Origin: a virus
Lineage: Duplodnaviria > Heunggongvirae > Uroviricota > Caudoviricetes
Direction: 5' to 3' (one strand)
IMG/VR virus record: IMGVR_UViG_2778261225_000015
Length of the DNA stretch: 23,768 nucleotides
The translations under genes were made by a program, and so were the position numbers. A model generated the notes under the pieces. It did not search any database, was not told the origin of the DNA, and saw nothing but the letters and a program-made list of their open reading frames with translations. The first letter of the stretch is position 1. Every line of letters begins with the position of its first letter. Shown one piece after another: positions 1 through 23,768 of this stretch.

Positions 1-12
1 TATCCGCTGGAG

Positions 13-5965: not shown

Positions 5966-6002
5966 AACATCCTCACTTGTATAGAAAATAAAATACATAA
6001 AA

Positions 6003-6470
6003 TCAATCAATAGATCTAGCCGCCTCAGCTAAAGAAACCATAATTATGTCATGAATCATATTTTTTGATTCATGATCAAACCCGATAAGCATTCGGGCGT
6101 CATACTGTACCGGCGCACTGTTTCGCCCAGGCTTATCTTTGAGACCGTACTGATGCACATTCGCCATCCGTTGTACCTTGCCGGTAAATTCCACGACCGC
6201 CGAGTCATTCCCCGCTGTGGCTTTCATAAAGCGACTGGTGCGGAGCTTAGCGAACATTTCCCGCTTAACCCGGCCTGTTTTGGCTTTTACCGGCTGGCGT
6301 TTTCGGGCGGCGTAAGGTGTCCCGTCCGGGGCTTTCTGCATTTTAATCCGGCGCTGTTGACGGGCTCGCAGGGTCTTAGCGATATCTGCGGCCATTCTGC
6401 GACGGGCGGCAGGAGACAGCGCTGCTATCAGCCCCGTGAGCGTATCGTCAAAGGGTTTAAAGTCATTCAT
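6003..6470 (-). CDS. S: Tail completion protein S
   Basis: 155 aa, P2 gpS-like sequence and position; overlaps R by 8 nt. Confidence 0.85.
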   Translation of the reverse strand: MNDFKPFDDTLTGLIAALSPAARRRMAADIAKTLRARQQRRIKMQKAPDGTPYAARKRQPVKAKTGRVKREMFAKLRTSRFMKATAGNDSAVVEFTGKVQRMANVHQYGLKDKPGRNSAPVQYDARMLIGFDHESKNMIHDIIMVSLAEAARSID

Positions 6471-7183: not shown

Positions 7184-7451
7184 TGAGTAACCTCGTAATG
7201 GTCTGTTCCCGACGCTGTGCCCGCGCTCCGGCATCGATGAGCTCACCGCGCAGTAAGACCTGAGCGGTCTCATTTTCCCCACGGATACGGGAGGCCGTTT
7301 TAAGCTGGCTTTTCAGCATGGTAATCACCGTTTTTTGGTCACCGGCGACTTTATTCGCCCGTTCAAAGGAACGGGTCAGACTGGTGTTTTCGTGGCGCAT
7401 CCAGAGCAGCCCGGCCACGGCCAGCACTAACAACACGACTATCGTTTTCAT
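7038..7451 (-). CDS. lysB: Inner-membrane spanin (LysB/Rz-like i-spanin)
   Basis: N-terminal TM segment (IVVLLVLAVAGLLW) followed by a charged, coiled-coil-prone periplasmic domain; lies immediately downstream of the endolysin. Confidence 0.7.
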   Translation of the reverse strand: MKTIVVLLVLAVAGLLWMRHENTSLTRSFERANKVAGDQKTVITMLKSQLKTASRIRGENETAQVLLRGELIDAGARAQRREQTITRLLNENEQLRRWYSADLPDAVRRLHQRAACADAGDCLQRMSEGQPLPDAGK

Positions 7452-7957
7452 TTCACCCCCTTCAGGCAGTAGGTGCGCTCACGAAAGCGGCGGTTTTCGA
7501 CCCCGGCATTACGCTCACCATTCACAAACACCCAGCGGGTGAGCTGGTCACAGGCCTGCCACCATTGCCGGTGTTTCAGGTGATACACCAGCGTCGAGCG
7601 ACAGGCCGCGCCGGTGCCGACGTTAAAAGCGAAGCTGACCAGCGCGTCATAGACGGCGGGTGGCATGTCCACCGGCACACAGACCGCGAGTCGTTTCTCG
7701 ACGTTCAGCACGTCGGCGACCAGATTCGCGGCGGCTTCCTTCTCGGTGATATCCCGTTTCGGTACCACCCCGGCAGTGTGGCCGATGCCTGACGTCCACA
7801 CACCCGCGCTGCACTGGTAAGGACGCAACCGGCACCCCTCGAGGTCGGCAATCAGCGCGAGCCCTTCCGGCGAGGTGTGAAGCAAACGAAAATCAGGCAC
7901 CAGTGCCGCCAGCGCCAGCACGACGGCCACACTGCAACGTTTAACGAATGAGCCCAC
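7448..7957 (-). CDS. SAR (signal-anchor-release) endolysin, T4-lysozyme/P1 Lyz-like
   Basis: Block LIADLEGCRLRPYQCSAGVWTSGIGHT resembles the P1 Lyz region as recalled; N-terminal weakly hydrophobic anchor KRCSVAVVLALAALV. Start proposed at GTG 7957, 14 nt upstream of the holin stop; the 204-aa ORF to 8062 has no internal ATG and would overlap most of the holin. Confidence 0.75.
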   Translation of the reverse strand: MGSFVKRCSVAVVLALAALVPDFRLLHTSPEGLALIADLEGCRLRPYQCSAGVWTSGIGHTAGVVPKRDITEKEAAANLVADVLNVEKRLAVCVPVDMPPAVYDALVSFAFNVGTGAACRSTLVYHLKHRQWWQACDQLTRWVFVNGERNAGVENRRFRERTYCLKGVK

Positions 7958-8162
7958 GAATAACCCCCTTATCAATCCCCATCGAGACGAGATAGCGGTA
8001 TTTCTTTCGCTGGTACCAGAAGTTAACCAGCGCGGTAAAAATGGCGCAGCTTCCCCCGACATAAAGCGCGAGCCGTTCCGGCGTCTGCGTACCGAAATAC
8101 GCCAGCACCACTGACAGCCAGTAGGTCAGAAAGGTTGTGATTTTATCCACAGTCAGTCCCAT
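7941..8162 (-). CDS. Holin (two predicted TM segments, charged C-terminus)
   Basis: 73 aa with TM segments ITTFLTYWLSVVLAYFG and LALYVGGSCAIFTALVNFWY and a basic tail; located between X and the endolysin as in P2 gene Y. Confidence 0.7.
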   Translation of the reverse strand: MGLTVDKITTFLTYWLSVVLAYFGTQTPERLALYVGGSCAIFTALVNFWYQRKKYRYLVSMGIDKGVIRGLIR

Positions 8163-8953: not shown

Positions 8954-9712
8954 TTAACCGGTGACTTTCTTCGGGCGTCCCCGCCCTCGTTTCACCGGTG
9001 AATCTTGTTTTTTCGCGGGTGCCTTTTTCGCGGCTTTCGGCGCCGTTTTTTTGACGACGACCGGTTTCGGGTTCAGCTCACGAGTGAGGGTCTCAATGTC
9101 CTTTCTTACCCCGGCGTTGGTGTCGAGCTGTAAGGCGCGTTGCAGGTGCGCCAGTGCATCAGGAAGCTGACCGGCATCACGCAGGGTCAGACCGGTGACC
9201 TTATGCAGTCGGGCGCGCACTTCGTCAGGCATATCGGCGGCATCGGTCAGCCCGATGACCTCGAGCAGTTGCGAAGCGTCGACCGGCTCACCGGCGATAC
9301 GGGCGCGGAGAGCCGCGAGCGCGACCTCTTCGGCCAGCATATAAGGCGCGGGGCGGGAATGATTTTCCGGCATAGACAGGTCAAAACGCAGGGCATAGCG
9401 CGCAATCTCGACAGCGCCGGTGATATCCCCCGCATCCAGACGCCAGAGCATCACCGTCATCAGAATGTCATCCTGTGCGCCGGTGCCGCTTTCCAGTACG
9501 CCAGCGACCCACGGCAGGTACAGCGGGAGTAATTCGCGTTTTTTATCCGCTTTGCGTTCTTTAGAACGAATCGCTGATAGCGTCCGGCGGTCTGCGGCCA
9601 GCTTGACGAGCATTTGCTCGTAAGGTGAGGCATGACGCAGCGGGGCATTGTCCCGCTGCGATGCCCTGACAGCCGAGACCCGCATCGCGTGACGCTGTGC
9701 GGGGGTTGCCAT
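8954..9712 (-). CDS. M: Terminase endonuclease (small) subunit M, with AT-hook-like basic C-terminal tail
   Basis: 252 aa, P2 gpM-like size and position; C-terminus KKTAPKAAKKAPAKKQDSPVKRGRGRPKKVTG. Confidence 0.8.
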   Translation of the reverse strand: MATPAQRHAMRVSAVRASQRDNAPLRHASPYEQMLVKLAADRRTLSAIRSKERKADKKRELLPLYLPWVAGVLESGTGAQDDILMTVMLWRLDAGDITGAVEIARYALRFDLSMPENHSRPAPYMLAEEVALAALRARIAGEPVDASQLLEVIGLTDAADMPDEVRARLHKVTGLTLRDAGQLPDALAHLQRALQLDTNAGVRKDIETLTRELNPKPVVVKKTAPKAAKKAPAKKQDSPVKRGRGRPKKVTG

Positions 9713-11816: not shown

Positions 11817-11980
11817 GAGTCAGGTGTCCTGAGTTGGGTTATCGGGTCGGTTGTAGTTTCCCGACTCAGCCGCTCACCAGCCACCGGTTACAGAAGTGCA
11901 ACCCCTGACACAACAGGGGGTTAGCGATTCATCCCCCCTGAATCTTTAGCCTTGCCGTGTACTCATCACGGCGAGGTTTT
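11817..11980. promoter_or_regulatory. Divergent late-promoter region between scaffold O and terminase P
   Basis: 164-bp non-coding gap between divergently oriented late operons, as in P2; no exact TGT-N12-ACA activator site could be found by eye, so promoter positions are not assigned. Confidence 0.4.
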
Positions 11981-13750
11981 ATGACCACTACAACCGACAC
12001 ATCACTACTCAACGATCCGCGACGACAGGCCGCGCTTTTGTTCTGGCAGGGCTATTCCGTGCCACAAATCGCGGAACAGTTGCAGGTCAAGCGCCCCACG
12101 GTGCAGAGCTGGAAGCAGCGCGATAAATGGGAAAAAACCGCACCGTTAAACCGGGTCGAGTTCACGCTCGAGGCTCGGCTGATTCAGCTCTATGCAAAGC
12201 CTGACCTGACGGCTCATGACTTTAAGGTCGCGGATTTTCTGGCGCGCCAGATGGAACGCCTCGCGCGGGTCAGTCGTTACGGTCAGACAGGTAACGCAGC
12301 GGATTTAAACCCGAACGTGGCCAACCGCAACAAAGGGGAAAAGAAGAAGCCGAAAAAGAACTTTTTCAGCGAAGAGGCTATCGACAAGCTCGAAGAGATT
12401 TTCCTCGACCAGTCTTTCGACTATCAGCTCGAGTGGTGGCGCGCGGGGCTGGCGCACCGTATCAGGCACATCCTGAAATCACGACAGATTGGAGCGACAT
12501 TCTACTTTGCGCGAGAGGCGCTGTTACAGGCGCTGAAGACCGGCCACAACCAGATATTTTTATCGGCCAGTAAGACACAGGCCTATGTATTTCGAAAATA
12601 CATCATCGCCTTTGCCCGACTGGCTGGCGTCGAGCTCACCGGCGACCCGATTGTGCTCGGCAACAATGGCGCGGAGCTGATGTTTCTCGGCACCAATGCC
12701 AACACGGCGCAGAGCCACAACGGCGACCTGTATGTCGATGAAATTTTCTGGATCCCCAACTTCCAGAAGCTGAAGCGCGTTGCCGGTGGCATGTCTTCAC
12801 AGGAGCATTTGCGCACGACCTATTTTTCGACCCCCTCATCGCTGGCGCACGGTGCCTATCCGTTCTGGTCGGGTGAGCAGTTCAACAAGGGACGCTCAGA
12901 CAAGAGCGAGCGCGTCGATATCGATATCAGTCACGCAGCACTCGCGAAGGGTGTCGCTTGCCCGGACGGCCAGTGGCGGCAGATTGTCACCATCGAGGAC
13001 GCACTCGCTAAAGGGTGCACACTGTTTAACATCGACACGCTGAAGCGCGAGAACAGCGTCGATGAGTTCCGTAATCTGTTTATGTGCGAGTTCGTCGACG
13101 ATAAAGCGTCGGTATTCCCGTTCGAAGAGCTGCAACGCTGCATGGTCGACAGCCTCGAGAAATGGGAGGACTACACGCCATTTGCCGACCGGCCTTTCGG
13201 TCACCGCCCGGTGTGGATTGGTTACGACCCGTCATTACGCGGCGACAGCGCCGGGTGCGTCGTCATCGCGCCGCCAGTCGTCGCCGGTGGACGATTCCGA
13301 ATCCTCGAGCGCCATCAGTGGAAAGGGATGGATTTTGCTCAACAGGCCGAATCCATTCGCGAGCTCACGCAGAAATATACCGTCGAATACATCGGCATCG
13401 ATGCGACCGGGCTCGGACAGGGCGTTTTCCAGTTAGTGCGCTCATTCTACCCGGCAGCGCGTGAAATCCGCTACACGCCGGAAATGAAAACCGCAATGGT
13501 GCTGAAAGCCAAAGACACCATTCGCCGCGGTTGCCTCGAGTACGACGTCAGCGCGACCGATATCACGCAGTCGTTTATGTCTATCCGCAAAACCATGACC
13601 AGCAGCGGGCGCAGCTCGACCTATGAGGCCAGCCGCACCGAGGAAGCCAGTCACGCCGATCTCGCGTGGGCAACCATGCACGTATTAATCAATGAGCCGC
13701 TGACCGCCGCGACCGGCGAACAGTCATCCAGTATTATGGAGTGGAACTAA
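11981..13750 (+). CDS. P: Terminase ATPase (large) subunit P
   Basis: Start taken at ATG 11981 with GAGG 4 nt upstream (the ORF-track start 11957 is a GTG); P2 gpP-like over its whole length; stop TAA overlaps the Q start (TAATG). Confidence 0.9.
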   Translation: MTTTTDTSLLNDPRRQAALLFWQGYSVPQIAEQLQVKRPTVQSWKQRDKWEKTAPLNRVEFTLEARLIQLYAKPDLTAHDFKVADFLARQMERLARVSRYGQTGNAADLNPNVANRNKGEKKKPKKNFFSEEAIDKLEEIFLDQSFDYQLEWWRAGLAHRIRHILKSRQIGATFYFAREALLQALKTGHNQIFLSASKTQAYVFRKYIIAFARLAGVELTGDPIVLGNNGAELMFLGTNANTAQSHNGDLYVDEIFWIPNFQKLKRVAGGMSSQEHLRTTYFSTPSSLAHGAYPFWSGEQFNKGRSDKSERVDIDISHAALAKGVACPDGQWRQIVTIEDALAKGCTLFNIDTLKRENSVDEFRNLFMCEFVDDKASVFPFEELQRCMVDSLEKWEDYTPFADRPFGHRPVWIGYDPSLRGDSAGCVVIAPPVVAGGRFRILERHQWKGMDFAQQAESIRELTQKYTVEYIGIDATGLGQGVFQLVRSFYPAAREIRYTPEMKTAMVLKAKDTIRRGCLEYDVSATDITQSFMSIRKTMTSSGRSSTYEASRTEEASHADLAWATMHVLINEPLTAATGEQSSSIMEWN

Positions 13751-14778
13751 TGAGCAAGAATCGCAACAACAAGCGACAGCAGCCGCGCCCCCAAAGTCAC
13801 ACCGCCGCATCGGCACAGAGCATGGAGGCATTCACCTTTGGCGAGCCGACGCCGGTACTCGATCGCCGCGACATTCTCGATTATGTGGAGTGCATCGACA
13901 ACGGCCAATGGTATGAGCCGCCGGTGAGCTTCTCCGGGCTGGCGAAGAGCATGCGCGCCGCCGTTCATCACAGCTCACCGATTTACGTGAAGCGTAATAT
14001 TCTGGTGTCGACCTACATCCCGCACCCGCTGTTATCGCGTCAGGATTTCAGCCGGTTCGTGCTCGATTATCTGGTATTTGGCAACGCCTTTCTCGAAGAG
14101 CGTCGCGGTCTGACTGGCAAGCCGCTAAAGCTGGAGACCTCACCGGCCAAATATACCCGTCGTGGCGTTGATGATGACGTGTACTGGTATATCCAGTCCT
14201 ACACGCAACCGCACCAGTTTTCGCCCGGTTCCGTCTTCCACCTGCTTGAGCCTGATATTAATCAGGAGCTGTACGGGATGCCGGAATACCTGAGCGCACT
14301 CAATTCAGCCTGGCTGAATGAGTCAGCGACACTGTTTCGTCGCAAGTATTACCAGAACGGCGCGCACGCAGGGTACATCATGTATGTGACCGATGCCGCT
14401 CAGAACAGCACTGACGTCGAAGCGTTGCGAAAGGCGATGCGCGACTCGAAAGGGCTCGGCAATTTTAAGAATCTGTTTTTCTACGCACCGCACGGTAAAC
14501 CGGATGGGATTAAAATTGTGCCGCTGAGCGAAGTCGCGACGAAGGATGATTTTTTTAATATCAAGAAAGTCAGCGCCGCTGACCTGCTCGACGCGCACCG
14601 CATCCCGTTCCAGTTGATGGGCGGCAAGCCTGAGAACGTCGGCTCAGTGGGCGATATTGAGAAAGTGGCAAAAGTATTTGTTCGCAATGAATTAACTCCA
14701 TTGCAAGATAGGATTCGTGAATTAAATCATTGGTTTGGTGATAATTTAATTAAGTTCAAGCCGTATACCTTTGATTAA
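13750..14778 (+). CDS. Q: Portal (capsid portal vertex) protein Q
   Basis: P2 gpQ-like, about 343 aa from ATG 13750 (MSKNRNNKRQQ...), GGAG upstream; the GTG at 13741 is an alternative start. Confidence 0.9.
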   Translation: MSKNRNNKRQQPRPQSHTAASAQSMEAFTFGEPTPVLDRRDILDYVECIDNGQWYEPPVSFSGLAKSMRAAVHHSSPIYVKRNILVSTYIPHPLLSRQDFSRFVLDYLVFGNAFLEERRGLTGKPLKLETSPAKYTRRGVDDDVYWYIQSYTQPHQFSPGSVFHLLEPDINQELYGMPEYLSALNSAWLNESATLFRRKYYQNGAHAGYIMYVTDAAQNSTDVEALRKAMRDSKGLGNFKNLFFYAPHGKPDGIKIVPLSEVATKDDFFNIKKVSAADLLDAHRIPFQLMGGKPENVGSVGDIEKVAKVFVRNELTPLQDRIRELNHWFGDNLIKFKPYTFD

Positions 14779-14794
14779 GTATGAATGCAAAAAA

Positions 14795-14824
14795 TCCAGA
14801 GTCCATTATAATAATGACTCTGGA
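14795..14824. terminator. Hairpin between convergent portal gene and cargo operon; likely rho-independent terminator for the minus-strand operon, possibly bidirectional
   Basis: Perfect 9-bp stem TCCAGAGTC / GACTCTGGA (14795..14803 and 14816..14824) with a 12-nt AT-rich loop; on the minus strand it is followed directly by a T6 run (complement of AAAAAA 14789..14794). Confidence 0.5.
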
Positions 14825-14834
14825 TGAAAATGTT

Positions 14835-15521
14835 TTATTGCTTATCTTGTGGTGGTGGAACCTCTTTTTCTAAATTATCTACATACTCTCTAATATTGAA
14901 TGCTTTGTTTTTCCTTATTTCGGTAGTGTTAACCTTACTAACACCATCACGAATGTTTTTATTTATGGTGTCTATTAATTTTTGTCTTTCTTGTTCTGTT
15001 TTTATTATTTCACTTAAGAATGACTTTGCGTTTCTTGAAATGTCCGTCTGTCTATTAATGAATAGTATCGCATACACTGAAAAAACCAAGCAAGTAGTCG
15101 TTAGTGCGGAATTAAAAAATACCCCATAATAAACATTAACTTTTGTTATTGACGCTGATAACGTTAGTGATATCAAAAAAAACAAAATCAGGGTAAAAAT
15201 ATATGCAATGGTTACTTTGTTTTTAGTGGTGTCAAGAATGTATGAAGTTCTTTGATCATCAAAGTAATCCTTTATCCTTGATGGAGTGTTTGCGGGGAGT
15301 TCTAACTCCTTTATTTTATCATCAGCATCAATTAGTCGCTTAAACATGAGGCTAATGATTACGGCGCTAAAGACAGAGATCCCCTTTGAAATTATAGGAT
15401 CGAAATCAATTAAAAATGAGTATTTTGAATAAACAAAAACAATAACAAAACCACATATAAGCCCAATTACAATTGAGCTTGCTATGTTTTTTGCATATGT
15501 TTGTAACGTATTGTTTATCAT
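14835..15521 (-). CDS. Integral membrane protein, 228 aa, four predicted TM helices (2 + loop + 2) with cytoplasmic charged tail; second gene of a two-gene cargo operon
   Basis: Hydrophobic segments near residues 13-31, 47-60, 114-135 and 141-165; ATGA start/stop overlap with the upstream gene; AT-rich. Confidence 0.7.
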   Translation of the reverse strand: MINNTLQTYAKNIASSIVIGLICGFVIVFVYSKYSFLIDFDPIISKGISVFSAVIISLMFKRLIDADDKIKELELPANTPSRIKDYFDDQRTSYILDTTKNKVTIAYIFTLILFFLISLTLSASITKVNVYYGVFFNSALTTTCLVFSVYAILFINRQTDISRNAKSFLSEIIKTEQERQKLIDTINKNIRDGVSKVNTTEIRKNKAFNIREYVDNLEKEVPPPQDKQ

Positions 15522-16501
15522 GGGTTAATTACTCCGGTGTCTAGTAAGCGCAATAACCATGAAATCATTTCTTCAGCAACGTTGTCAGCAATTAGCATTC
15601 CATTGCTGTATTCAATATTAACTGAATCCTTTAGTTGAATCTCATCATTCCTGAGTATTCCTGCACCTTTTAACTCAATTGTTAAGCTTTCATCTCTATT
15701 ATCAACCAAGCCTTGTGTAATTTTACGCAACATGTCTTGCTCAGACTCGCTTGCTTTATATTTATACCCAATGGAAATATCAATTGATAGAGATTCCCTG
15801 TCAGGTGAACCATCATTTAAAATGGTATTTTTCTTCATTTCATTAATTCGATGTTCACCTACGAGCGTTTTTAATAGCTCACTAGCTGTATCATCAATAT
15901 TATTTCCATAGTAGGTTAAAGGCAGCTTTAAGCTAACATTTTTTACTATGTTACGTTTTAAAAAATCCGTATTTAGAGACAGGTTGTTTGCCTGTAAAAC
16001 GATGAAGTTATCATCAGTAATAGATAGGTTGTCTTGTAGTATGAAATTTATATAATTTTCAATATCTTTTATTCTAATAGATCTGCTTTGCAGAATTATG
16101 AAGTGGTTCTTAATCACACCAATGTATGCAATGCTTTCTAAATACTCTCTAGCATTCCCACTTGATAAATTTAATGTCTCGTATGTTAAAGCTGTTTTAG
16201 CATAATCGCTAACAGAGAAAACAGGAATGCTACTACCCGGTTCAATATAGACAATTTCCGCAAAAAACATTCCATGAATTTCTTTGCTATTTGAAAGAAC
16301 CATGTGGGCGTGAGCAGCGACATTACCATTATTATCTGGAACATCAGGGAAGAATAATCTATCAGCAACATTTGGAACCTTGATTTTCACAAGGTTTGCC
16401 AACCTATCTTGCAGGTTTGATGTTAAAAGAGCATCCTTTTTAGGAAGCATTATTGCATGGCGATAATGCAGCATTTTACTCTTATAATCTTGCGTTGCCA
16501 T
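15518..16501 (-). CDS. Uncharacterised soluble protein, 327 aa; first gene of a two-gene cargo operon at the portal/cos hotspot
   Basis: ATG 16501 preceded by AGAGGGA; no Walker A, HxH or GxSxG motif seen by eye; AT-rich codon usage unlike the phage backbone. Confidence 0.75.
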   Translation of the reverse strand: MATQDYKSKMLHYRHAIMLPKKDALLTSNLQDRLANLVKIKVPNVADRLFFPDVPDNNGNVAAHAHMVLSNSKEIHGMFFAEIVYIEPGSSIPVFSVSDYAKTALTYETLNLSSGNAREYLESIAYIGVIKNHFIILQSRSIRIKDIENYINFILQDNLSITDDNFIVLQANNLSLNTDFLKRNIVKNVSLKLPLTYYGNNIDDTASELLKTLVGEHRINEMKKNTILNDGSPDRESLSIDISIGYKYKASESEQDMLRKITQGLVDNRDESLTIELKGAGILRNDEIQLKDSVNIEYSNGMLIADNVAEEMISWLLRLLDTGVINP

Positions 16502-16572
16502 AGAATCCCTCTTGCTATGAATATGTTATACACGGAGCGAAGCAATTATGTATTGTATTGCTCTGGCGCGCA

Positions 16573-16591
16573 ATGCTATCCCCGCCACGCC
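16573..16591. other. Putative cos site (19-nt cohesive-end sequence of a 186-like phage)
   Basis: ATGCTATCCCCGCCACGCC; its reverse complement GGCGTGGCGGGGATAGCAT differs at one position from the phage 186 cohesive end as I recall it (GGCGTGGCGGGGAAAGCAT; P2 is GGCGAGGCGGGGAAAGCAC). Confidence 0.55.
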
Positions 16592-16872
16592 TGCCCGCTT
16601 TATGGGGCGGTTTTAATGCAGTTGCATGACCACTCTGGATACGCGCCAGCTGTGGCGGCACACGGCTAGAACGTGCAACCCATGTCGCATGCAAAATCAT
16701 GCGCCTGATGCATGCACAGCTAAAAAACGGGAAATTCGTGGAAAAATGGCATAAAAAACGACTTTGAAAGTGCCGGCCATGGTCAGATTTTCAAGGGCAG
16801 GCTAACGCCTCGCGCGGCTCGTTGTTCAAACCCGCTGACGCCAAAATCTAGTTTTTGCATCAGCGCGTTTAC

Positions 16873-17055
16873 CTATTCAGCCTTATAGAAAATTTCGTCT
16901 TTTTCTTCGTCGCTTTCGCTGTTAGCTAGGCCGGCAATTAGAGTTAGTGCCAGCTTCAAATCTGCCGGTTTGCAGTTGGCAATAAGAGATATCTCGGCGA
17001 TAAATTGCACACAAGCCCACTTTTGCTGCGTTCGGCTGAAATGTTTCCCAACCAT
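16873..17055 (-). CDS. Small SOS-regulated protein, 60 aa, acidic C-terminus; candidate Tum-like antirepressor (function inferred from position and regulation only)
   Basis: ATG 17055 preceded by GGGAGGG with 5-nt spacing; consensus LexA box 21 bp upstream; lies between replication gene A and cos, where 186 carries its SOS-inducible tum gene. Confidence 0.55.
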   Translation of the reverse strand: MVGKHFSRTQQKWACVQFIAEISLIANCKPADLKLALTLIAGLANSESDEEKDEIFYKAE

Positions 17056-17075
17056 GAAATCCCTCCCAATAGGAT

Positions 17076-17095
17076 TACTGTGTATTTATACAGTA
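17076..17095. promoter_or_regulatory. LexA operator (SOS box)
   Basis: TACTGTGTATTTATACAGTA fits CTGT-N8-ACAG with the flanking TA..TA of the E. coli consensus TACTGTATATATATACAGTA; immediately upstream of the RBS of ORF 16873..17055. Confidence 0.7.
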
Positions 17096-17244
17096 TAACG
17101 TATTGGCAAAAGATGGGAAGAGAAAAAGTGAATCGGGTAGGTGTTGTATGTACATGATATGGATGTAAATTAATCACCTGTGAGTTTTGATGTTTCTGCC
17201 AGCACCGCAACACGATTAAGGATTTCCCTAGGCTTTGCCTGAAG

Positions 17245-19392
17245 CTATGGCGCTGCGGAGAAAATTTCACCTTTGGACGTTCCACGCAACCATTTACCGT
17301 TAATACAACTTTTGCCACCTGCTATCAGGTGCAGGGCTTCTCCCCGGCTGATGGTAATGCCGGTTGTCAGACGGATCTCGTCGATAGTTTTTTCTATCGG
17401 AGCACTTTGCTCATCTGTTCCGTGGATAAATTTCGGCCTCTTAGGTGGCTTTGGTTTCCTGATTCGGTTCGTCAGCTCTCGCCTTTCACGTCGACTCAGG
17501 GGTTTTGATAAATCGAGTTCCGGTGGATCGCTTTCGCTTCCCGTACAGTTATTGACAGAACTCCAAGGGACGGCGAAGCCGTCCTTAACGTCAACGGCCA
17601 AATCAACGGCACGCTTCGGAACAATTTTCCATTGCGTGAGCCGGGTTAAAATCGGAGTGCCAACACCAACGGTGGAGTCGTACACACCACGAATGCAGAC
17701 AGTTTCCTCACCATACTGGTTAAACTCGGTGCGCGGTTCATAAAGCGTACGCACCTGCAAATCATCGCGACGGACAAACGGACCGCCCTGCGCATTAACA
17801 TAGCCAGCCCAATCACCGGCATCGGCGGCATCATGGACAGCCGCAAACTCAACACTTAGACCGTGCGCGGTCTCGGTATCTGCAAGGCGACGCAATTCAC
17901 GATAAACAGTCACTGGTGCACCACCGATAAACTGAAACTGACGAATATGCCAGCGCGCCGCCCATGCTGAAACGGCGGGGGCTGTCTCTTTCAACAGTTC
18001 ACCGTTTTCGTCATCGGTTTCGTCATCAAGAGCGTAACCGTCGATATTTTTCGAGATGTATTTCGCGACGTAGCCGGTTGCGCTGCCTTTCTCCGGATCA
18101 ATGGCTTCTGCGTGGAAACGTGCTTTTTTGGCTTTATCGCTTTTGAGTTCGTGAAAATCTTCTTGCCATGCGTAGTCCCGAATAATGCCACGAACGGTAT
18201 CGACGTCCTCCGGGAGCATAAACATCAGCATATGCCAGTGAGGGCACCCGTCATGGTGAGGCTCTGCAACGCGGATCCCGAAAATACGAATGTCTTCACG
18301 GTGGAGTTTTGCGCGAATGCGTGCCCACAGGCCAGTGAGATAACATTGCGTATCGGATGGATTGGATCCATTCCATTTGGTGTTACGGTAGCCTGCCTTT
18401 GTCGTGGCGTGATATTTAGACGGTGCGGTCAGGGTGTAAAACTCACCAACATAACCGAGCTCATTGCAGATATTTTCAAACCCACGAATGCGGGTCATAA
18501 GCTCACAGCGTCGAATCGCAGAGTTAGCGACTGAACCATCGTATTTTTCAATCAGGCTGATACGGTTGCCGTCTTCGTCTTCAAGCTCCAGACCTTTGAG
18601 AAATTCGCGCGTCCGGCGCTTCTGTTCACGCCAGTCTGTCACGCAGTTTTTACTCGCGTAGACATGTTTTTTCTTACTGACATTTCCGATTGCGATTTGC
18701 AGGTGTTCGCGCCACGCAGCCGCAATGCGACGCAGACGGCCACGCCACCATTTTTCCGAAAACATACGGGCAATTGCTGGAGCGACTTTATCCTGATCCC
18801 AATATTTATCCCGCGACCGTTCCCACTCTGGTGGCATTATCCTGAATTGCTGAGTGATGAAACCAGCATGCATATACCAGGCATTTAATGTCTCCAGTTC
18901 ACACATGTCAGAATCGTCAATGTTGACTAACTCTGCACGGATAAAATCGGCGATATCAGCAGCCAGCAGGTCGATGTCGGCGCGTGCCATATCCGGGAGT
19001 CGGTTGTATCTGGCGACTATGTTGACCATGCGAGACGCCAGATATTGCATAAGCTGAGTATCGAAATGACAACCGAAAACAGCGGCTGATACGTTGCTGT
19101 TAATACCGGTACACTCGTATTTTTTTGCGACCAGTTCAAAACGCGGCAATGCCTTTTTGCAGAAGCTTATTAAAAAAGCATTGGCTCGTTGACTGCCCTG
19201 ATTTTGCTCCAGCACCGCAGCAGTGCGATAAACGTCAAAACGTACACACTCGGGCTGGAGGGAAAGCACCTTTCTAGCATGCAGCAAAGCCGCGAGCATA
19301 CGGTCGCGGCGATACTGTTGGTCGTAGGTAAGATATGGACTGGCTATTGCCGACCGTGGAGCATTCCACGGAAACGCGAATTGAACAGCCAA
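17245..19392 (-). CDS. A: Replication initiation protein A (rolling-circle replication endonuclease, P2/186 gpA family)
   Basis: 715 aa, gpA-like size and position; the first codon is TTG at 19392 with GGGGGA 7 nt upstream, directly after the stop of the upstream zinc-finger gene; no in-frame ATG near the 5' end. Confidence 0.85.
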   Translation of the reverse strand: MAVQFAFPWNAPRSAIASPYLTYDQQYRRDRMLAALLHARKVLSLQPECVRFDVYRTAAVLEQNQGSQRANAFLISFCKKALPRFELVAKKYECTGINSNVSAAVFGCHFDTQLMQYLASRMVNIVARYNRLPDMARADIDLLAADIADFIRAELVNIDDSDMCELETLNAWYMHAGFITQQFRIMPPEWERSRDKYWDQDKVAPAIARMFSEKWWRGRLRRIAAAWREHLQIAIGNVSKKKHVYASKNCVTDWREQKRRTREFLKGLELEDEDGNRISLIEKYDGSVANSAIRRCELMTRIRGFENICNELGYVGEFYTLTAPSKYHATTKAGYRNTKWNGSNPSDTQCYLTGLWARIRAKLHREDIRIFGIRVAEPHHDGCPHWHMLMFMLPEDVDTVRGIIRDYAWQEDFHELKSDKAKKARFHAEAIDPEKGSATGYVAKYISKNIDGYALDDETDDENGELLKETAPAVSAWAARWHIRQFQFIGGAPVTVYRELRRLADTETAHGLSVEFAAVHDAADAGDWAGYVNAQGGPFVRRDDLQVRTLYEPRTEFNQYGEETVCIRGVYDSTVGVGTPILTRLTQWKIVPKRAVDLAVDVKDGFAVPWSSVNNCTGSESDPPELDLSKPLSRRERRELTNRIRKPKPPKRPKFIHGTDEQSAPIEKTIDEIRLTTGITISRGEALHLIAGGKSCINGKWLRGTSKGEIFSAAP

Positions 19393-19911: not shown

Positions 19912-20112
19912 TTAGCTATAGCCAAATACAACGGCAGGTTTACTTTTCAACTGGCTGATAATTTCAGCTTTCAGGCCATCCTTAAACTCTTTGCAGCATT
20001 CCCACTCAGGGTCAACCCGAAGTATTGCACCGTCGCGAGTTTTAATTTCAAAACCGTCTTCCATATTCGGAATCATGGCTCCTAAAACAATTCTTAATTC
20101 ATCGCGTGACAT
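19912..20112 (-). CDS. Hypothetical early-region protein, about 66 aa
   Basis: Start taken at internal ATG 20112 (MSRDELRIVLG...) with AAGGGA upstream; the ORF-track start at 20151 would overlap the neighbouring ORF. Confidence 0.5.
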   Translation of the reverse strand: MSRDELRIVLGAMIPNMEDGFEIKTRDGAILRVDPEWECCKEFKDGLKAEIISQLKSKPAVVFGYS

Positions 20113-20359
20113 GTTTAATCCCTTTAATAATAAAGTGGACAATACGAACAATTAAAAAGCCTGACGACTTCGGCGGCTTTGTTTCCAGCCCTTTTAATAA
20201 TTCGGACTGTGAGCAGCACGGATGCCAGCGCCTGCCATCTTTCCCCGCAATCCAGCCGTGACCGTAATGCATGCCGGGACTTTGCTTAACGAGCAGAGAA
20301 GCGAATGAAGGTTCATTTTTCAGCACAGGTACCTCATACCAAACCGAATGTTGCGCCAA
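20099..20359 (-). CDS. Hypothetical small protein downstream of cII (at the position of 186 fil/dhr); start uncertain
   Basis: ORF begins with TTG at 20359 inside the cII 3' end; alternative ATG at 20272 has a weak RBS. Low confidence that it is expressed as annotated. Confidence 0.25.
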   Translation of the reverse strand: MAQHSVWYEVPVLKNEPSFASLLVKQSPGMHYGHGWIAGKDGRRWHPCCSQSELLKGLETKPPKSSGFLIVRIVHFIIKGIKHVTR

Positions 20360-20878: not shown

Positions 20879-21103
20879 TTAGGCTGCCACATAGCGGCAA
20901 TTAAGGCCCTGAGCCAAGAGTCGAGCACGGAAGGCAACCATATTGATACGCGCAGCACCACCGTCTTTTTTACGGGGCATCAGGAGGAGATCTCCATCAG
21001 CAACCATCTGTTTTACAGTGCGAATGCTGTAGCCGTAGCATTCAGCAAATTCGTCATAAGTCATGAGATCCGCGCCGGACGGGATTGCAATTTGTGGAGT
21101 CAT
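20879..21103 (-). CDS. apl: Apl/Cox-like excisionase and switch repressor (small HTH protein)
   Basis: 74 aa, first gene of the lytic transcript divergent from cI; HTH-like segment MTYDEFAECYGYSIRTVKQMVADG. Confidence 0.7.
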   Translation of the reverse strand: MTPQIAIPSGADLMTYDEFAECYGYSIRTVKQMVADGDLLLMPRKKDGGAARINMVAFRARLLAQGLNCRYVAA

Positions 21104-21189
21104 AAGTAATCATCTCCGGTTACTAGTTGGTTTGGTGCATTGGCGTGCATTTTTAAATTCAAGCGAGAATCTTATCTCGAAAAAGCGAG
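21104..21189. promoter_or_regulatory. Lysis/lysogeny switch region between apl and cI (promoters and operators)
   Basis: 86-bp gap between divergent apl and cI with direct repeats AAGCGAGA (21161..21168 and 21183..21190), a near-palindrome CGAGAATCTTATCTCG (21164..21179) and GTGCAT repeats (21135..21150). Confidence 0.5.
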
Positions 21190-21807
21190 ATGTCAATTTG
21201 GATTTTCGCGATAACTCGGATTTTTAAGATGAAATTGGATGAGTTAGAGGGTGGAAAAGCAGTGCTGCAGCGCATCCTTGATGCGTATGGCTTCACCATG
21301 CAAAAACAACTCGGTGACTTGCATGAGCTGTCATCGGGAACAATCAGCACTTGGGTTCGGCGTAATTTTTTCCCCGGGGATGTTGTTGTTGCATGCGCTT
21401 TGGACACTGGGGTGTCTTTACGTTGGTTGGCAACAGGGAAGGGGAACAAGTTTGATGCAGACCATACTAATGGCGAAATGAAAACATTAGACCGATTGGA
21501 TATTGTTGCAGGTAAGCTGCAGGAAAACGGTCATTGGATTGTTGATGCTAACCTCTTTTCTACTGAGGCGACGCACCCCAATTACATAGTAAAAGGCCAG
21601 CAGTCCTGGATAGTTGATTTTGATATGACTGATATAGCAAATGGGCGATGGATGCTCAGTATCGACGGGGATCATGATGTCTATGACGTTGCAAGGATCC
21701 CGGGGAACAGAATAAAAGTCAGCAACGCTGATGCCGATTTTCAATGCTCAGTTTCTGAGGTTAAGTGTATTGGCATGGTGCTGGTAAGCCTGACGAAATC
21801 TAGCTAA
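21190..21807 (+). CDS. cI: CI-type immunity repressor
   Basis: HTH-containing N-terminal domain (LQRILDAYGFTMQKQLGDLHELSSGTISTWV) plus C-terminal oligomerisation domain; immediately upstream of int on the same strand as in 186. Alternative start ATG 21229. Confidence 0.8.
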   Translation: MSIWIFAITRIFKMKLDELEGGKAVLQRILDAYGFTMQKQLGDLHELSSGTISTWVRRNFFPGDVVVACALDTGVSLRWLATGKGNKFDADHTNGEMKTLDRLDIVAGKLQENGHWIVDANLFSTEATHPNYIVKGQQSWIVDFDMTDIANGRWMLSIDGDHDVYDVARIPGNRIKVSNADADFQCSVSEVKCIGMVLVSLTKSS

Positions 21808-21811
21808 CGAT

Positions 21812-22849
21812 ATGAGTGTTAAAAAACTGACATCGGGTGAATGGCTTTGTGATTTCCGCGTCGACGGGGCTGAAAGTCGCCGCGTGCGTAAGAAGTTTTC
21901 AACCAAAGGTGAAGCCGTTGCCTTCGAGCAGTATTACCGAGAAGAGGCACAAAATAAGCCGTGGATGGGTGAGAAGGAAGACCGTCGACGTTTGAGTGAA
22001 CTGATTGAGCTGTGGCATAACCTCCATGGCCAGTCGCTCGCTGCCAGCAAATCGCGATTGGCCAAACTGCACATTGTTTGCCGGGGTCTTGGCGACCCAA
22101 TCGCTACCCAGCTTACCGCCAAAGATTTCGCCCATTATCGGGATAAACGTCTCAAGGGTGAAATCGACAATGGCTATCACGCAAATTCTGAAAAGTGGAT
22201 TGCGAAACCTGTGACTGTGAACCGGGAACAACAGTACCTCGAAGCTGTTTTCAATGAGCTGAAGCGCTTGGGTGAGTGGAGTCTGCCAAATCCTCTCGAA
22301 GGTGTGCGAGTTTTCAAAGAAGCCGAAAAAGAAATGTCTTGGCTTACCCAGCCTCAAATTCGCGAAGTGCTCAATGCTTGTGAGTCATACGGGAAAATTT
22401 ATTTAACCCGTATCGTCAAAGTGTGCTTAGCGACTGGTGCTCGATGGAGCGAGGCCGAGCGTCTTACTCGTTCACAGCTTTCACCCCACAAGTTGACTTT
22501 CACTAAAACGAAGGGAAAGAAGAATCGTACAGTACCGATCCCTCGGTGGCTATATGACGAGTTGGCTCCTTTACAGGGAAAAATGTTCCACCCCTGCTAT
22601 CAGGAGTTCAAGAAAATGCTCGCTCTGACCGATATAGAGTTAGCTGAAGGGCAAAAAACGCATGTGTTACGTCATACATTTGCGAGTCACTTTATGATGA
22701 ATGGTGGGAACATTTTAGTACTGCAACGAATCTTGGGCCATTCTAACATTAGGGAAACCATGAGATACGCTCATTTTGCACCAGATCATTTAGAAGAAGC
22801 TGTAACTCTTAACCCTATTTCTAATTTAACAGGATTATATGATGAGTGA
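21812..22849 (+). CDS. int: Tyrosine-recombinase integrase
   Basis: 345 aa; C-terminal catalytic block HVLRHTFASHFMMNGGNILVLQRILGHSNIRETMRYAHF (R..H-x-x-R...Y signature). Confidence 0.9.
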   Translation: MSVKKLTSGEWLCDFRVDGAESRRVRKKFSTKGEAVAFEQYYREEAQNKPWMGEKEDRRRLSELIELWHNLHGQSLAASKSRLAKLHIVCRGLGDPIATQLTAKDFAHYRDKRLKGEIDNGYHANSEKWIAKPVTVNREQQYLEAVFNELKRLGEWSLPNPLEGVRVFKEAEKEMSWLTQPQIREVLNACESYGKIYLTRIVKVCLATGARWSEAERLTRSQLSPHKLTFTKTKGKKNRTVPIPRWLYDELAPLQGKMFHPCYQEFKKMLALTDIELAEGQKTHVLRHTFASHFMMNGGNILVLQRILGHSNIRETMRYAHFAPDHLEEAVTLNPISNLTGLYDE

Positions 22850-23768
22850 GCCAACCATCGAAACACCTCCAAGAATGACCGAGGCCAAAGTCATTAGGGT
22901 ACGCACTCGTGGTTTTTATAATTTAGTTGAGATAGGTGCAGTCTTTCTAGTTGCAAATGTAATTTTTGCTACAGGGATATTAGACTCAACCTTTTATTAT
23001 TTATTTCCCAGTGCGAGAGCAGATCTTACACATTTGCCGAGCTTTATCAGGTCAATATTCGCAGTGTCATTTGTAATCGTTTACACCATTATCTATGGTG
23101 TGTCTCCAATCCAAAGAATGTTTATGAGAATTACAGGGAGTGATTCAGTCGACAAATCATCGATGTTTAATATTGTCGATATTATAAATGAGATAAAACT
23201 ACTCAAGAAGGCTCAAGAGGAAAGGGCTGCTGCTGATGAAGATGAATCTCTGGATTTTTATCTTAAAGGTTTGATTAATAGCTCTGAAGGTCTTGCGAAA
23301 AACATATATTCTCGCGGTAGTCTTTATTTATTAGTCGGTGTTTGTTTTGCAATAGTTGGATTAGGTTTCTTCTATTCTCAATCACATGTAATTGATGCTA
23401 AGGATGATGCGGTAACCAAGGTAATGTATCTTCTCCCTAATTTTGGCGTGTTGATTTTCTTGGAGTTAATCGCATTTTTCTTTTTGAAGCAATATCGGGT
23501 TACGATGGATGAGTTTCGCTATTACGAGGCAATAAAACGTTCACGTGAGGAAAGCTATGCCATTATAAAGCTTGTAATGGCTAGCCAGAAAGATATCGAT
23601 ATGATAGACCTTCTGGATAAAATTAATTTTAGCTCAAGAGTTGGAAAACTAGAATCAGGGCAGACTACTGAAATTATTGAAGCAAGAAAATTAGACAAAA
23701 ATGAACTTGAAACCTTAGTAAAGCTTACCGAGGCAGTTGCGGGTAAGATTGGACAGGGAAATAAGTAG
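22839..23768 (+). CDS. Integral membrane protein, 309 aa, four predicted TM helices with cytoplasmic loop and tail; cargo gene downstream of int
   Basis: AGGA upstream of tandem ATGs at 22839/22842; overlaps the int stop by 11 nt; AT-rich; stop codon is the last three bases of the window. Confidence 0.7.
   Translation: MMSEPTIETPPRMTEAKVIRVRTRGFYNLVEIGAVFLVANVIFATGILDSTFYYLFPSARADLTHLPSFIRSIFAVSFVIVYTIIYGVSPIQRMFMRITGSDSVDKSSMFNIVDIINEIKLLKKAQEERAAADEDESLDFYLKGLINSSEGLAKNIYSRGSLYLLVGVCFAIVGLGFFYSQSHVIDAKDDAVTKVMYLLPNFGVLIFLELIAFFFLKQYRVTMDEFRYYEAIKRSREESYAIIKLVMASQKDIDMIDLLDKINFSSRVGKLESGQTTEIIEARKLDKNELETLVKLTEAVAGKIGQGNK

What the first reader, a model, noticed from the sequence alone, without database searches (positions are those of the whole stretch)
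16573..16591. 186-type cos site places the two-gene cargo operon at the very left end of the packaged genome
Seen in sequence: the reverse complement of 16573..16591 is GGCGTGGCGGGGATAGCAT, one mismatch from the 186 cohesive end as recalled. Inference: in the linear virion DNA the cargo operon (start codon about 70 bp from cos) would be the first DNA adjacent to the end, upstream of Q, whereas the SOS ORF and A lie at the other end. This supports a 186-like rather than P2-like lineage and defines the true phage genome termini inside the prophage.
Basis: partly seen in the sequence, partly recalled or inferred. Interest (0 to 1): 0.45.

Follow-up and report, generated by a model that had tools for sequence, protein, structure and literature searches.

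The report
Prophage cos site with Rex-like cargo
The 19-base sequence is the real DNA-packaging cut site (cos) of a 186-like E. coli prophage, which puts a two-gene cargo at the left tip of the packaged genome in an insertion slot known since 1996; the cargo looks like a distant structural relative of phage lambda's RexAB exclusion system.

Summary
The reverse complement of 16573..16591 is GGCGTGGCGGGGATAGCAT, one mismatch from the annotated 186 cos and three from P2 cosL. No match appeared in 100 shuffles.

It is the homologous cos, not a chance match. The last 282 bp of the 186 genome align up to 16592. All 159 related loci that held enough sequence carry the same conserved core at the same place and orientation downstream of the portal gene. 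The "mismatch" (T at position 14) is a common natural allele.

Termini are therefore predicted at 16591 and 16573. The cargo operon (14835..16501) occupies map positions 91-1757 at the left end. The LexA-controlled 60-aa ORF and gene A lie at the right end.

This is not new in kind:
- The cos-to-portal slot was described in 1996 (retrons Ec67/Ec86) and 1999 (phiCTX ctx).
- It lies inside the gpA-gpQ defence hotspot of Rousset 2022, whose table lists this very locus as "hypothetical x3".

New here:
- Cargo on the portal side is a minority layout: 12/80 relatives, 2/79 in P2 proper.
- The pair recurs next to cos in a P4-like satellite.

The 186-like label holds for the early genes only. Virion ends were not tested.

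The parts
16573..16591 (-). 19-nt cohesive-end sequence of cos (GGCGTGGCGGGGATAGCAT). Predicted nicks lie 5' of 16591 on the minus strand and after 16573 on the plus strand, giving 19-nt 5' overhangs.
   Evidence: The 186 annotation reads 'top strand cut at 5' end and bottom strand cut at 3' end'. The identical 19-mer occurs in 6 of 80 related loci, and a 39-nt stretch that includes it is 100% identical in Erwinia phage ENT90.
16561..16572 (-). Left flank of cos: TGCGCGC (16566..16572), at least 95% conserved across relatives, plus CAGAG shared with 186. Homology to other phages ends here.
   Evidence: In every locus with portal-side cargo, similarity breaks 5-12 bp after the 19-mer.
16592..16627 (-). 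Right flank of the conserved cos core (about -1..-36: CATGCAACTGCATTAAAACCGCCCCATAAAGCGGGCA), the presumed terminase recognition region.
   Evidence: Per-column conservation over 150 distinct segments from 159 loci. PMC5694545 cites a 55-bp cos core from Ziermann & Calendar 1990.
16592..16870 (-). Right-end non-coding region, homologous to the last 282 bp of the 186 genome, including a weakened counterpart of terminator t95b.
   Evidence: blastn gives 82% identity to U32222.1 30343..30624, and the record ends exactly at window 16592. Alignment; folding.
15518..16501 (-). Cargo gene A, 327 aa, soluble, with a RexA/RdgC-type fold.
14835..15521 (-). Cargo gene B, 228 aa, with four hydrophobic (predicted transmembrane) segments and a charged C-terminal tail. 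It overlaps gene A by 4 nt.
   Evidence: Homologous or analogous 219-240 aa partners follow every cargo-A homologue examined.
14788..14825 (-). Hairpin plus T6 terminator of the cargo operon. It replaces the tW/tQ terminator of 186/P2.
   Evidence: ATCCAGAGTC...GACTCTGGAT TTTTTT, -15.9 kcal/mol.
13741..14778 (+). Portal gene (P2 Q / 186 W homologue), convergent with the cargo operon.
   Evidence: Pfam Phage_portal; 80% identity to 186 W and 78% to P2 Q.
11957..13750 (+). Large terminase subunit (P2 P homologue), the enzyme expected to cut cos.
   Evidence: Pfam Terminase_6N/6C/Terminase_5; 81% identity to both 186 and P2.
8954..9712 (-). Small terminase/endonuclease subunit (P2 M / 186 R homologue).
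   Evidence: tblastn 66-67% identity; RefSeq annotation 'terminase endonuclease subunit'.
16873..17119 (-). SOS cassette at the right end: promoter TTCCCA-16-TATACT, LexA box CTGTATAAATACACAG (17078..17093) overlapping the -10 element, and a 60-aa ORF (16873..17055).
   Evidence: phrog_1993; 83% identity to a 60-aa ORF of Klebsiella phage RCIP0057.
17245..19392 (-). Replication gene A, the last large gene before the right end.
   Evidence: Pfam Phage_GPA at 2.4e-128; 86% identity to 186 A. A premature TAG removes 24 codons relative to relatives.

Best explanation
16573..16591 is the cohesive-end site of an essentially complete prophage of about 32.5 kb, with 186-like early genes, integrated between rplS and yfiB in E. 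coli.

The phage terminase (small subunit 8954..9712, large subunit 11957..13750) is expected to recognise a conserved core of about 60 bp, roughly 16566..16627. Most of that core lies on the A-gene side of the cut. The terminase would make staggered nicks that leave 19-nt 5' overhangs, as annotated for 186. Packaged DNA would then start at 16591 and run downward in window coordinates, ending at 16573 coming from the A-gene side.

Only 7-12 bp to the left of the overhang belong to the conserved core. The DNA between that point and the portal gene's stop codon is therefore free to vary. Here the usual spacer of about 180 bp, including terminator tW/tQ, has been replaced by a 1.8-kb AT-rich cassette with its own terminator.

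The cassette encodes a RexA-fold protein and a four-segment membrane protein. It is most likely a RexAB-type two-component phage-exclusion (abortive infection) module expressed from the prophage.

Shown here: sequence identity and homology of cos, conservation of the core, gene order, and fold similarity. Inferred: actual cleavage and packaging, the cassette's promoter, and its anti-phage function.
For: - The 19-mer is one mismatch from the annotated 186 cos, with 0 of 100 shuffles matching.
- The 186 right end aligns up to 16592, and 12 more bp are shared after the 19-mer.
- All 80 loci found with the window's Q, and 79 of 80 found with P2 Q, have a cos 19-mer downstream of Q in the same orientation. 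The one exception is a contig that ends about 165 bp after Q.
- The core from about -36 to +7 is at least 80% conserved in nearly every column, and the window matches it.
- T at position 14 occurs in 37 of 80 relatives, and a 39-nt stretch that includes the window's 19-mer is 100% identical in phage ENT90.
- Both terminase subunits, the portal gene and the full head/tail set are present.
- The estimated prophage size lies between 186 (30.6 kb) and P2 (33.6 kb).
- The gene pair is conserved in a second P2-like prophage, two satellites and a Vibrio prophage.
- Other occupants of the same slot include DRT2 and an NsnA/GmrSD-like system.
Against: - No virion DNA was examined.
- Gene A carries a premature stop that removes its last 24 codons, and PGAP calls it a pseudogene. 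The prophage could therefore be replication-defective, although 186 A lacks that tail altogether.
- No promoter above the scan threshold lies in the 71 bp between cos and the cargo ATG.
- Cargo A shows no sequence-level relationship to RexA: hhalign probability 0.1-0.3 with single sequences and with profiles of 16 and 60 members, and no Pfam PF15969 hit.
- Cargo B is not similar to RexB.
- There is no PADLOC hit.
Confidence: 0.85

Rival explanations
1. The cos sequence is intact but the prophage is defective, for example in replication because of the A nonsense codon. No particles are made, and the 'left end of the packaged genome' is only historical.
For: There is a premature TAG in A relative to more than 20 relatives, and RefSeq gives it a pseudogene flag. 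The DinI-like tum ORF that follows the same 60-aa SOS ORF in phage RCIP0057 is absent. PMC13586616 notes that the primase/A gene is the core gene most often pseudogenised in inactive P2 elements.
Against: Only 24 C-terminal codons are lost, and 186 A ends even earlier in a different frame. All other core genes give full-length ORFs. The cos core shows no degenerate positions. An identical 2-kb cargo region occurs in 13 complete E. coli genomes from varied sources.
Confidence: 0.12
2. The 19-mer is a chance or relic match and the real packaging site lies elsewhere.
For: None found beyond the single mismatch to 186.
Against: There were 0 matches in 100 shuffles. The flanks are homologous to the 186 and P2 junctions. 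The position and orientation match those in 159 related loci. No second cos-like site with up to 3 mismatches exists in the window.
Confidence: 0.01
3. The two-gene cargo is not an anti-phage system. It could be another lysogenic-conversion or membrane function, or a toxin-antitoxin-like addiction module, and the RexA-like fold would reflect only generic DNA binding, as in RdgC.
For: There is no sequence homology to RexA/RexB and no PADLOC or Pfam hit. The RexA fold is shared with non-defence proteins (RdgC, CHL4/IML3). Rousset's RexAB-like clone pFR86 is listed among 'additional tested systems' (Table S2B), separate from the table of the other cloned systems, so no validated phenotype is recorded for it.
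Confidence: 0.3

Closest known systems
cos of coliphage 186 (U32222.1, bases 1..19 plus flanks)
   Same: 18 of 19 bases match. Positions 5 and 19 are the 186 alleles (T, T). The right-end 282 bp are 82% identical, and 12 bp after the overhang are shared. Orientation relative to the portal gene and gene A is the same.
   Different: Position 14 is T, a common allele in relatives. The 176-bp spacer to the portal gene, including terminator tW, is replaced by a 1.8-kb cassette. orf97 and a full-length tum are absent from the right end.
cos of P2 (AF063097 cosL/cosR) and the 55-bp core of Ziermann & Calendar 1990
   Same: The conserved core and gene neighbourhood (A ... cos ... Q) are the same (core cited in PMC5694545).
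   Different: There are three mismatches in the 19-mer. P2 keeps its cargo (old, tin, orf91) on the A side of cos, whereas the A side here is the shortest in the sample at 656 bp.
cos-to-portal insertion slot: retrons Ec67/Ec86 in 186-related prophages (Dodd & Egan 1996), ctx in phiCTX (Nakayama 1999), ORF1-4 in phiRSY1
   Same: Foreign DNA lies between the cos core and the portal gene, and this has been proposed as a hotspot (PMC5694545). DRT2 (a reverse-transcriptase defence system) occupies this slot in locus L032.
   Different: The cargo is different. I could not read the 1996 and 1999 papers themselves, so exact junctions were not compared.
gpA-gpQ defence hotspot of P2-like phages and the cos-adjacent hotspot of P4 (Rousset et al. 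2022; Moura de Sousa et al. 2026)
   Same: The locus lies inside that hotspot. Rousset's Table S5 lists NZ_CP022664 with exactly these proteins as 'hypothetical + hypothetical + hypothetical'. In P4-like loci the cargo starts right after cos+TGCGCGC, as it does here.
   Different: Those studies treat gpA-gpQ as one interval and do not separate the two sides of cos. Here the portal side is occupied in 12 of 80 relatives and 2 of 79 P2-proper loci.
Lambda RexAB and RexAB-type systems (P. putida RexABpp; actinophage Sbash gp30/31)
   Different: There is no detectable sequence homology to RexA or RexB. Cargo B is 228 aa with a long charged tail, against 144 aa for RexB. The operon sits next to cos, not next to the immunity repressor. 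Function is untested.

Membership tests
P2/186-family (Peduoviridae) cos site | 19-nt cohesive-end sequence of the form GGCG[A/T]GGCGGGGA[A/T]AGCA[C/T] | tested here: met
   GGCGTGGCGGGGATAGCAT at 16573..16591(-). The same 19-mer occurs in 6 of 80 related loci, and a 39-nt stretch including it is 100% identical in phage ENT90.
P2/186-family (Peduoviridae) cos site | Conserved core flanks (about 36 bp on the A side, TGCGCGC on the Q side; 55-bp core in the literature) | tested here: met
   The window matches the consensus of 150 distinct segments at almost every column that is at least 80% conserved; its differences fall at polymorphic positions such as 5, 14 and 19 of the 19-mer. The 55-bp core is cited in PMC5694545.
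P2/186-family (Peduoviridae) cos site | Position between replication gene A and portal gene Q, with the 19-mer reading toward Q | tested here: met
P2/186-family (Peduoviridae) cos site | Cognate two-subunit terminase (gpM and gpP homologues) encoded by the same element | tested here: met
P2/186-family (Peduoviridae) cos site | Cleavage in vivo giving 19-nt 5' single-stranded ends on virion DNA | not testable with these tools
   Requires induced particles and end sequencing.
186-like lineage (as opposed to P2-like) | 186-type early region: A, CII, Fil, Dhr | tested here: met
   A is 86% identical to 186 versus 36% to P2. CII is 93%, the ORF at the 186 fil locus (20099..20359) is 83% and the ORF at the dhr locus (19912..20151) is 94%; these three have no P2 counterpart.
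186-like lineage (as opposed to P2-like) | 186 CI/Apl immunity switch | tested here: inconclusive
   CI is 28% identical to 186 CI. The Apl-position protein has no tblastn hit but matches the Cox-like phrog_575. The architecture is the same but the phage is heteroimmune.
186-like lineage (as opposed to P2-like) | LexA-controlled tum antirepressor operon at the right end | tested here: inconclusive
   A perfect LexA box overlaps a -10 element upstream of a 60-aa ORF. The ORF has no BLAST similarity to 186 Tum, and the DinI-like part is absent.
186-like lineage (as opposed to P2-like) | Structural genes closer to 186 than to P2 | tested here: not met
   Head, tail and terminase proteins are 54-81% identical to both, with no consistent preference.
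cos-to-portal cargo slot of P2-like phages | Variable, compositionally foreign DNA between the cos core and the portal stop, differing between close relatives | tested here: met
   The spacer is 1794 bp against a median of 181 bp. GC is 0.30-0.37. Eight different contents were seen in 12 of 80 relatives.
RexAB phage-exclusion system | Sequence membership of the RexA family (Pfam PF15969) | tested here: not met
   No Pfam hit for 16 or 60 family members. hhalign of the family profiles against a 19-member RexA profile gives probability 0.1-0.3.
RexAB phage-exclusion system | RexA two-domain fold | tested here: met
RexAB phage-exclusion system | Adjacent small membrane partner with four transmembrane segments | tested here: met
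   Four hydrophobic segments lie at about 13-31, 42-66, 103-121 and 134-155. The genes overlap by 4 nt. The partner is conserved in four other loci. This rests on hydropathy only, with no similarity to RexB.
RexAB phage-exclusion system | Exclusion of superinfecting phage with membrane depolarisation or growth arrest | not testable with these tools
   Needs cloning and phage challenge.

The most novel reading that the evidence does not exclude
The cargo may be a sequence-orphan branch of RexAB-type abortive-infection systems. The family is Pfam-less, with about 500 clusters at 50% identity. Its enterobacterial members sit preferentially in the slot immediately left of cos, in both helper phages (186-like and P2-like) and P4-like satellites. 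That slot would then be the positional equivalent of the P4 hotspot, and the shared cos core could act as the common anchor through which helpers and satellites acquired the same module, at least anciently.
Probability: 0.35. Interest if true: 0.5.

Novelty: new member of a known kind. Interest (0 to 1): 0.3.

Why it matters
For annotation, the cos call fixes the true ends and the map origin of this prophage. It also shows that the gpA-gpQ "hotspot" is really two slots separated by an immovable core of about 60 bp.

That distinction matters when comparing cargo between P2-like phages, which mostly load the A side, and P4 satellites, which load the other side of cos as this phage does.

The practical gain is a testable candidate defence system. 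The pair has a RexA-fold protein and a four-segment membrane protein, was so far catalogued only as "hypothetical", and is present in 13 complete E. coli genomes, with relatives in Aeromonas, Vibrio and Enterobacter elements.

The cos site itself is ordinary biology.

Tried and rejected
- Sequence routes to name the cargo all gave nothing: PADLOC, Pfam (single proteins, 16-member and 60-member sets, up to E=10), a PDB sequence profile search, BLASTP of cargo B against RexB, hhalign of A1 and A3 against lambda RexA, against a 19-member RexA profile, and against Rousset's pFR86 RexA-like protein.
- Foldseek against BFVD returned only uncharacterised phage proteins, plus weak RdgC hits.
- The afdb50 library was not available.
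- The promoter scan found no sigma-70 site above threshold in the 71 bp between cos and the cargo ATG. A by-eye candidate, TTGCGC-17-CATAAT, straddles the cos boundary but scores only 8/12, and I do not rely on it.
- I considered read-through from the SOS promoter across cos, because the t95b-like hairpin looks weaker than in 186. There is no evidence either way.
- Dodd & Egan 1996 could not be read, so its content is cited only through PMC5694545.
- I considered and dropped any statement on packaging direction or on which end is injected first, because I could not source it.
- The sos60 ORF has no BLAST hit to 186 Tum. Only a short LxLIA-type motif resemblance was seen by eye.

Full report
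OBSERVATION

The minus strand of 16573..16591 reads GGCGTGGCGGGGATAGCAT. The GenBank record of phage 186 annotates its first 19 bases, GGCGTGGCGGGGAAAGCAT, as [quoted passage not shown]. P2 cosL/cosR is GGCGAGGCGGGGAAAGCAC. The window site therefore differs from 186 at one position (14, A to T) and from P2 at three. Allowing up to three mismatches, the pattern occurs once in the window and never in 100 dinucleotide-preserving shuffles.

IS IT THE HOMOLOGOUS SITE?

Yes. blastn of the region against the phage collection aligns 186 bases 30343..30624, the very end of that linear record, to window 16870..16592 at 82% identity. The alignment stops exactly at the base next to the 19-mer. A three-way alignment of the circularised 186 and P2 junctions with the window shows a continuous conserved block running through the 19-mer. 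Twelve further shared bases follow (TGCGCGCCAGAG, 16572..16561), after which the window diverges completely.

I then fetched 80 IMG/VR loci encoding relatives of the window's portal protein and 80 encoding relatives of P2 gpQ.
- Every locus with enough sequence (159 of 160) carries a cos 19-mer downstream of the portal gene in the same orientation.
- Anchoring 150 distinct 159-nt segments on the 19-mer shows a core, at least 80% conserved in nearly every column, from about -36 to +7. Outside it, conservation falls away.
- The window agrees with the consensus throughout this core.

THE "MISMATCH"

Position 14 is polymorphic in nature. Among the 80 closer relatives the 19-mer alleles were:

| Allele at positions 5..14..19 | Loci |
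|---|---|
| A..A..C (P2 type) | 26 |
| A..T..C | 23 |
| T..A..T (186 type) | 9 |
| A..T..T | 7 |
| T..T..T (the window's) | 6 |
| minor forms | the rest |

A 39-nt stretch that includes the window's 19-mer and the seven bases after it is 100% identical in the deposited genome of Erwinia phage ENT90. T14 is therefore not a sign of decay. The same table shows that positions 5, 14 and 19 reassort freely, so the 19-mer alone is a weak lineage marker.

TERMINI AND MAP

Transferring the 186 annotation, mature DNA would begin with a 5' overhang at 16591 and run downward in window coordinates. It would end at 16573 coming from the A-gene side. In map coordinates the left end then reads as follows:

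| Feature | Map position |
|---|---|
| 19-mer | 1-19 |
| Conserved left flank | 20-31 |
| Cargo A | 91-1074 |
| Cargo B | 1071-1757 |
| Hairpin/T6 terminator | about 1767-1804 |
| Portal gene Q (complement) | 1814-2851 |
| Large terminase | follows Q |

The cargo ATG lies 71 nt after the 19-mer.

The right end carries gene A (17245..19392). After it comes a promoter, TTCCCA-16-TATACT, whose -10 element overlaps a perfect LexA box, CTGTATAAATACACAG (17078..17093). A 60-aa ORF (16873..17055) follows, and then 281 bp of 186-like non-coding DNA.

In E. coli FORC 064, which is 100% identical over the 2-kb cargo and cos region that was compared (window 14700..16700), the prophage lies between rplS and yfiB and spans about 32.5 kb. 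That is between 186 (30.6 kb) and P2 (33.6 kb), so the genome is of packageable size.

WHICH SIDE OF cos, AND IS THAT NEW?

P2 keeps its non-essential genes old, tin and orf91 on the A side of cos. In the surveys the portal-stop-to-cos spacer was tightly fixed and the A side was the variable one.

| Sample | Median portal-to-cos spacer | Median A-to-cos distance | Spacer >300 bp | Spacer >1 kb |
|---|---|---|---|---|
| Relatives of the window's Q (80 loci) | 181 bp | 2.6 kb | 12 | 8 |
| Relatives of P2 Q (79 loci) | 172 bp | 2.9 kb | 2 | 2 |

The window is one of the exceptions, and it has the shortest A side of its sample (656 bp).

In all exceptions similarity breaks 5-12 bp after the 19-mer. 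The inserted DNA is AT-rich (GC 0.35-0.47). Its contents include DRT2 (E 5e-205), an NsnA/GmrSD-like protein with a partner, a DndB/DpdB-like protein with a partner, DUF2188, and several unknowns.

The slot itself is not a discovery.
[quoted passage not shown] - Rousset et al. 2022 defined the whole gpA-gpQ interval as a defence hotspot "adjacent to the cos site".
- Their Table S5 lists NZ_CP022664 with exactly these three proteins as "hypothetical + hypothetical + hypothetical".

What the present analysis adds is a split of that interval at the cos core, with rough frequencies for each side.

LINEAGE

Protein-by-protein tblastn against the full 186 and P2 genomes gives the following.
- Replication protein A is 86% identical to 186 and 36% to P2.
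- CII is 93% identical to 186. The ORFs at the 186 fil and dhr loci are 83% and 94% identical. All three are absent from P2.
- Head, terminase, tail and baseplate proteins are 54-81% identical to both, with no preference.
- CI is only 28% identical to 186 CI.
- The Apl-position protein matches only a Cox-like PHROG.

"186-like" is therefore right for the early and replication module and for the cos flank. The late module is equidistant, and the phage is heteroimmune.

THE CARGO

Cargo A (327 aa) and cargo B (228 aa) overlap by 4 nt and have GC 0.30-0.37. They end in their own hairpin/T6 terminator, which replaces tW/tQ.

Sequence searches were unhelpful.
- Neither protein hits PADLOC, and neither has a significant Pfam hit (only a sub-threshold MgtE match for cargo B).
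- Cargo A matches phrog_3482, of unknown function.
- Close relatives are few: 17 clusters in 5.8 billion proteins.
- A profile search of 1.84 billion representatives finds 502 clusters at E up to 1e-3, mostly 320-350 aa, with no Pfam family.

Structure prediction was more informative.
- That is the same set of structural relatives reported for RexA itself in PMC11077077.

Cargo B has four hydrophobic segments, as do RexB and RexBpp.

At sequence level, however, hhalign finds nothing between the cargo-A profiles and RexA or a 19-member RexA profile (probability 0.1-0.3). I therefore say it probably works like RexAB, and I do not file it as a member of the RexA family.

CONTEXT OF THE CASSETTE ELSEWHERE

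Every homologue examined is followed by a 219-240 aa partner with a similar hydropathy pattern. The partners are 26-30% identical to cargo B in three cases.

| Homologue | Identity to cargo A | Host and element | Position |
|---|---|---|---|
| P0003 | 64% | E. coli, another P2-like prophage | Between a variant cos (GGCGTGGCGGGGATACGAG/CGCGCG, also in Rousset's pFR109 clone) and the portal gene |
| P0016 | 40% | Enterobacter, P4-like satellite | Order psu - cos - TGCGCGC - cassette - int, the canonical P4 hotspot |
| P0010 | 48% | Aeromonas, satellite-like element | After the primase |
| P0012 | 46% | Vibrio, prophage | |

Paired inheritance across hotspots of unrelated mobile elements is typical of defence modules.

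PMC13586616 reports that P2 and P4 almost never share closely related (>85%) defence genes. The sharing seen here is at 40% identity, so it is old and does not contradict that result. It does show that the portal side of cos in helper phages corresponds in position to the P4 hotspot.

MECHANISM, WITH ITS STATUS

Shown:
- The sequence and its homology.
- The conserved core.
- The presence of both terminase subunits and the portal gene.
- The gene order.
- The replacement of the spacer.
- The fold similarity and the paired partner.

Established for the family (P2 and 186; my own knowledge, plus the 186 annotation): terminase cuts cos to give 19-nt 5' cohesive ends, which anneal after injection.

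Inferred:
- That this copy is cut.
- That only about 7-12 bp to the left of the overhang are needed, which is why the slot tolerates insertions.
- That the cassette is expressed in the lysogen. No convincing promoter was found in the 71-bp leader.
- That it excludes other phages by a RexAB-like sensor and membrane-effector route.

REASONS FOR CAUTION

- Gene A carries a premature TAG. The lost 24 codons are still readable downstream, so the change is recent. 186 A lacks that tail entirely.
- The survey samples are the 80 best hits per query from IMG/VR, so the frequencies are rough and biased by lineage.
- The transmembrane segments come from a hydropathy scan only.

VERDICT

The finding is correct and useful for annotation, but it describes ordinary P2/186-family biology in a slot known for decades. 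The modest extra interest lies in the Rex-like cargo and in the two-sided view of the cos hotspot.

Noticed in passing
window 4622..6010 (-): A 462-aa DUF4062 protein (Pfam 1.9e-28, phrog_9489) lies between tail-completion gene S and baseplate gene V, the slot that holds the non-essential orf30 in P2. It has no PADLOC hit and is probably a second cargo or defence candidate.
   Followed up: partly
window 22839..23768 (+): A 309-aa ORF overlaps the integrase stop codon and lies between int and the chromosomal gene yfiB. It has no Pfam or PADLOC hit and only a weak phrog_5157 match. The int-to-att position is listed as a minor P2 defence hotspot in PMC13586616.
   Followed up: partly
window 17170..17250 (-), 3' end of gene A: A premature TAG truncates the replication protein by 24 residues relative to more than 20 relatives, and the downstream codons are still conserved. 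RefSeq flags the gene as a pseudogene in NZ_CP022664. 186 A ends earlier in another frame, so the tail may be dispensable.
   Followed up: partly
window 16873..17119 (-): The LexA-controlled operon holds only a 60-aa ORF (phrog_1993). In Klebsiella phage RCIP0057 the same ORF (83% identical) is followed by a 77-aa DinI-like 'tum' ORF, which corresponds to the C-terminal half of 186 Tum. That ORF is missing here, so it is unclear how, or whether, SOS induces this prophage.
   Followed up: partly
window 20879..21807: The immunity region is heteroimmune to 186. CI (205 aa) is 28% identical to 186 CI. The Apl-position protein (74 aa) has no 186 or P2 match but hits the Cox-like phrog_575. The neighbouring CII is 93% identical to 186.
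   Followed up: partly
window 7448..8162 (-): The endolysin and holin-position genes have no tblastn match in 186 or P2, although the flanking genes X and lysB do. The lysis cassette appears to have been swapped.
   Followed up: no
L175 5869..5893; Rousset Table S2 clone pFR109: A distinct cos variant, GGCGTGGCGGGGATACGAG followed by CGCGCG instead of ...AGCAT TGCGCGC, occurs in at least two E. coli P2-like prophages. It may be a separate packaging-specificity allele or a degenerate site.
   Followed up: no
L003 36296..37755 (E. coli FORC 064, just beyond the window's left edge): A recombinase (invertase) gene sits with oppositely oriented alternative tail-fibre and tail-fibre-assembly genes downstream of H. 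This suggests an invertible host-range segment.
   Followed up: no
L179 3470..4192 (FORC 064, beyond the ogr/B-like gene): A 240-aa hypothetical gene lies between the late-gene activator and rplS, at the other prophage end. It is possibly further cargo next to the att site.
   Followed up: no
window 16591..16610 (+): A conserved hairpin, CTGCCCGC...GGGGCGG followed by TTTTAATGCA, directly abuts the 19-mer on the A side. It reads as a terminator-like element for transcripts coming from the Q side and is part of the conserved cos core in 186 and P2. Its role (terminase recognition or terminator) is open.
   Followed up: no
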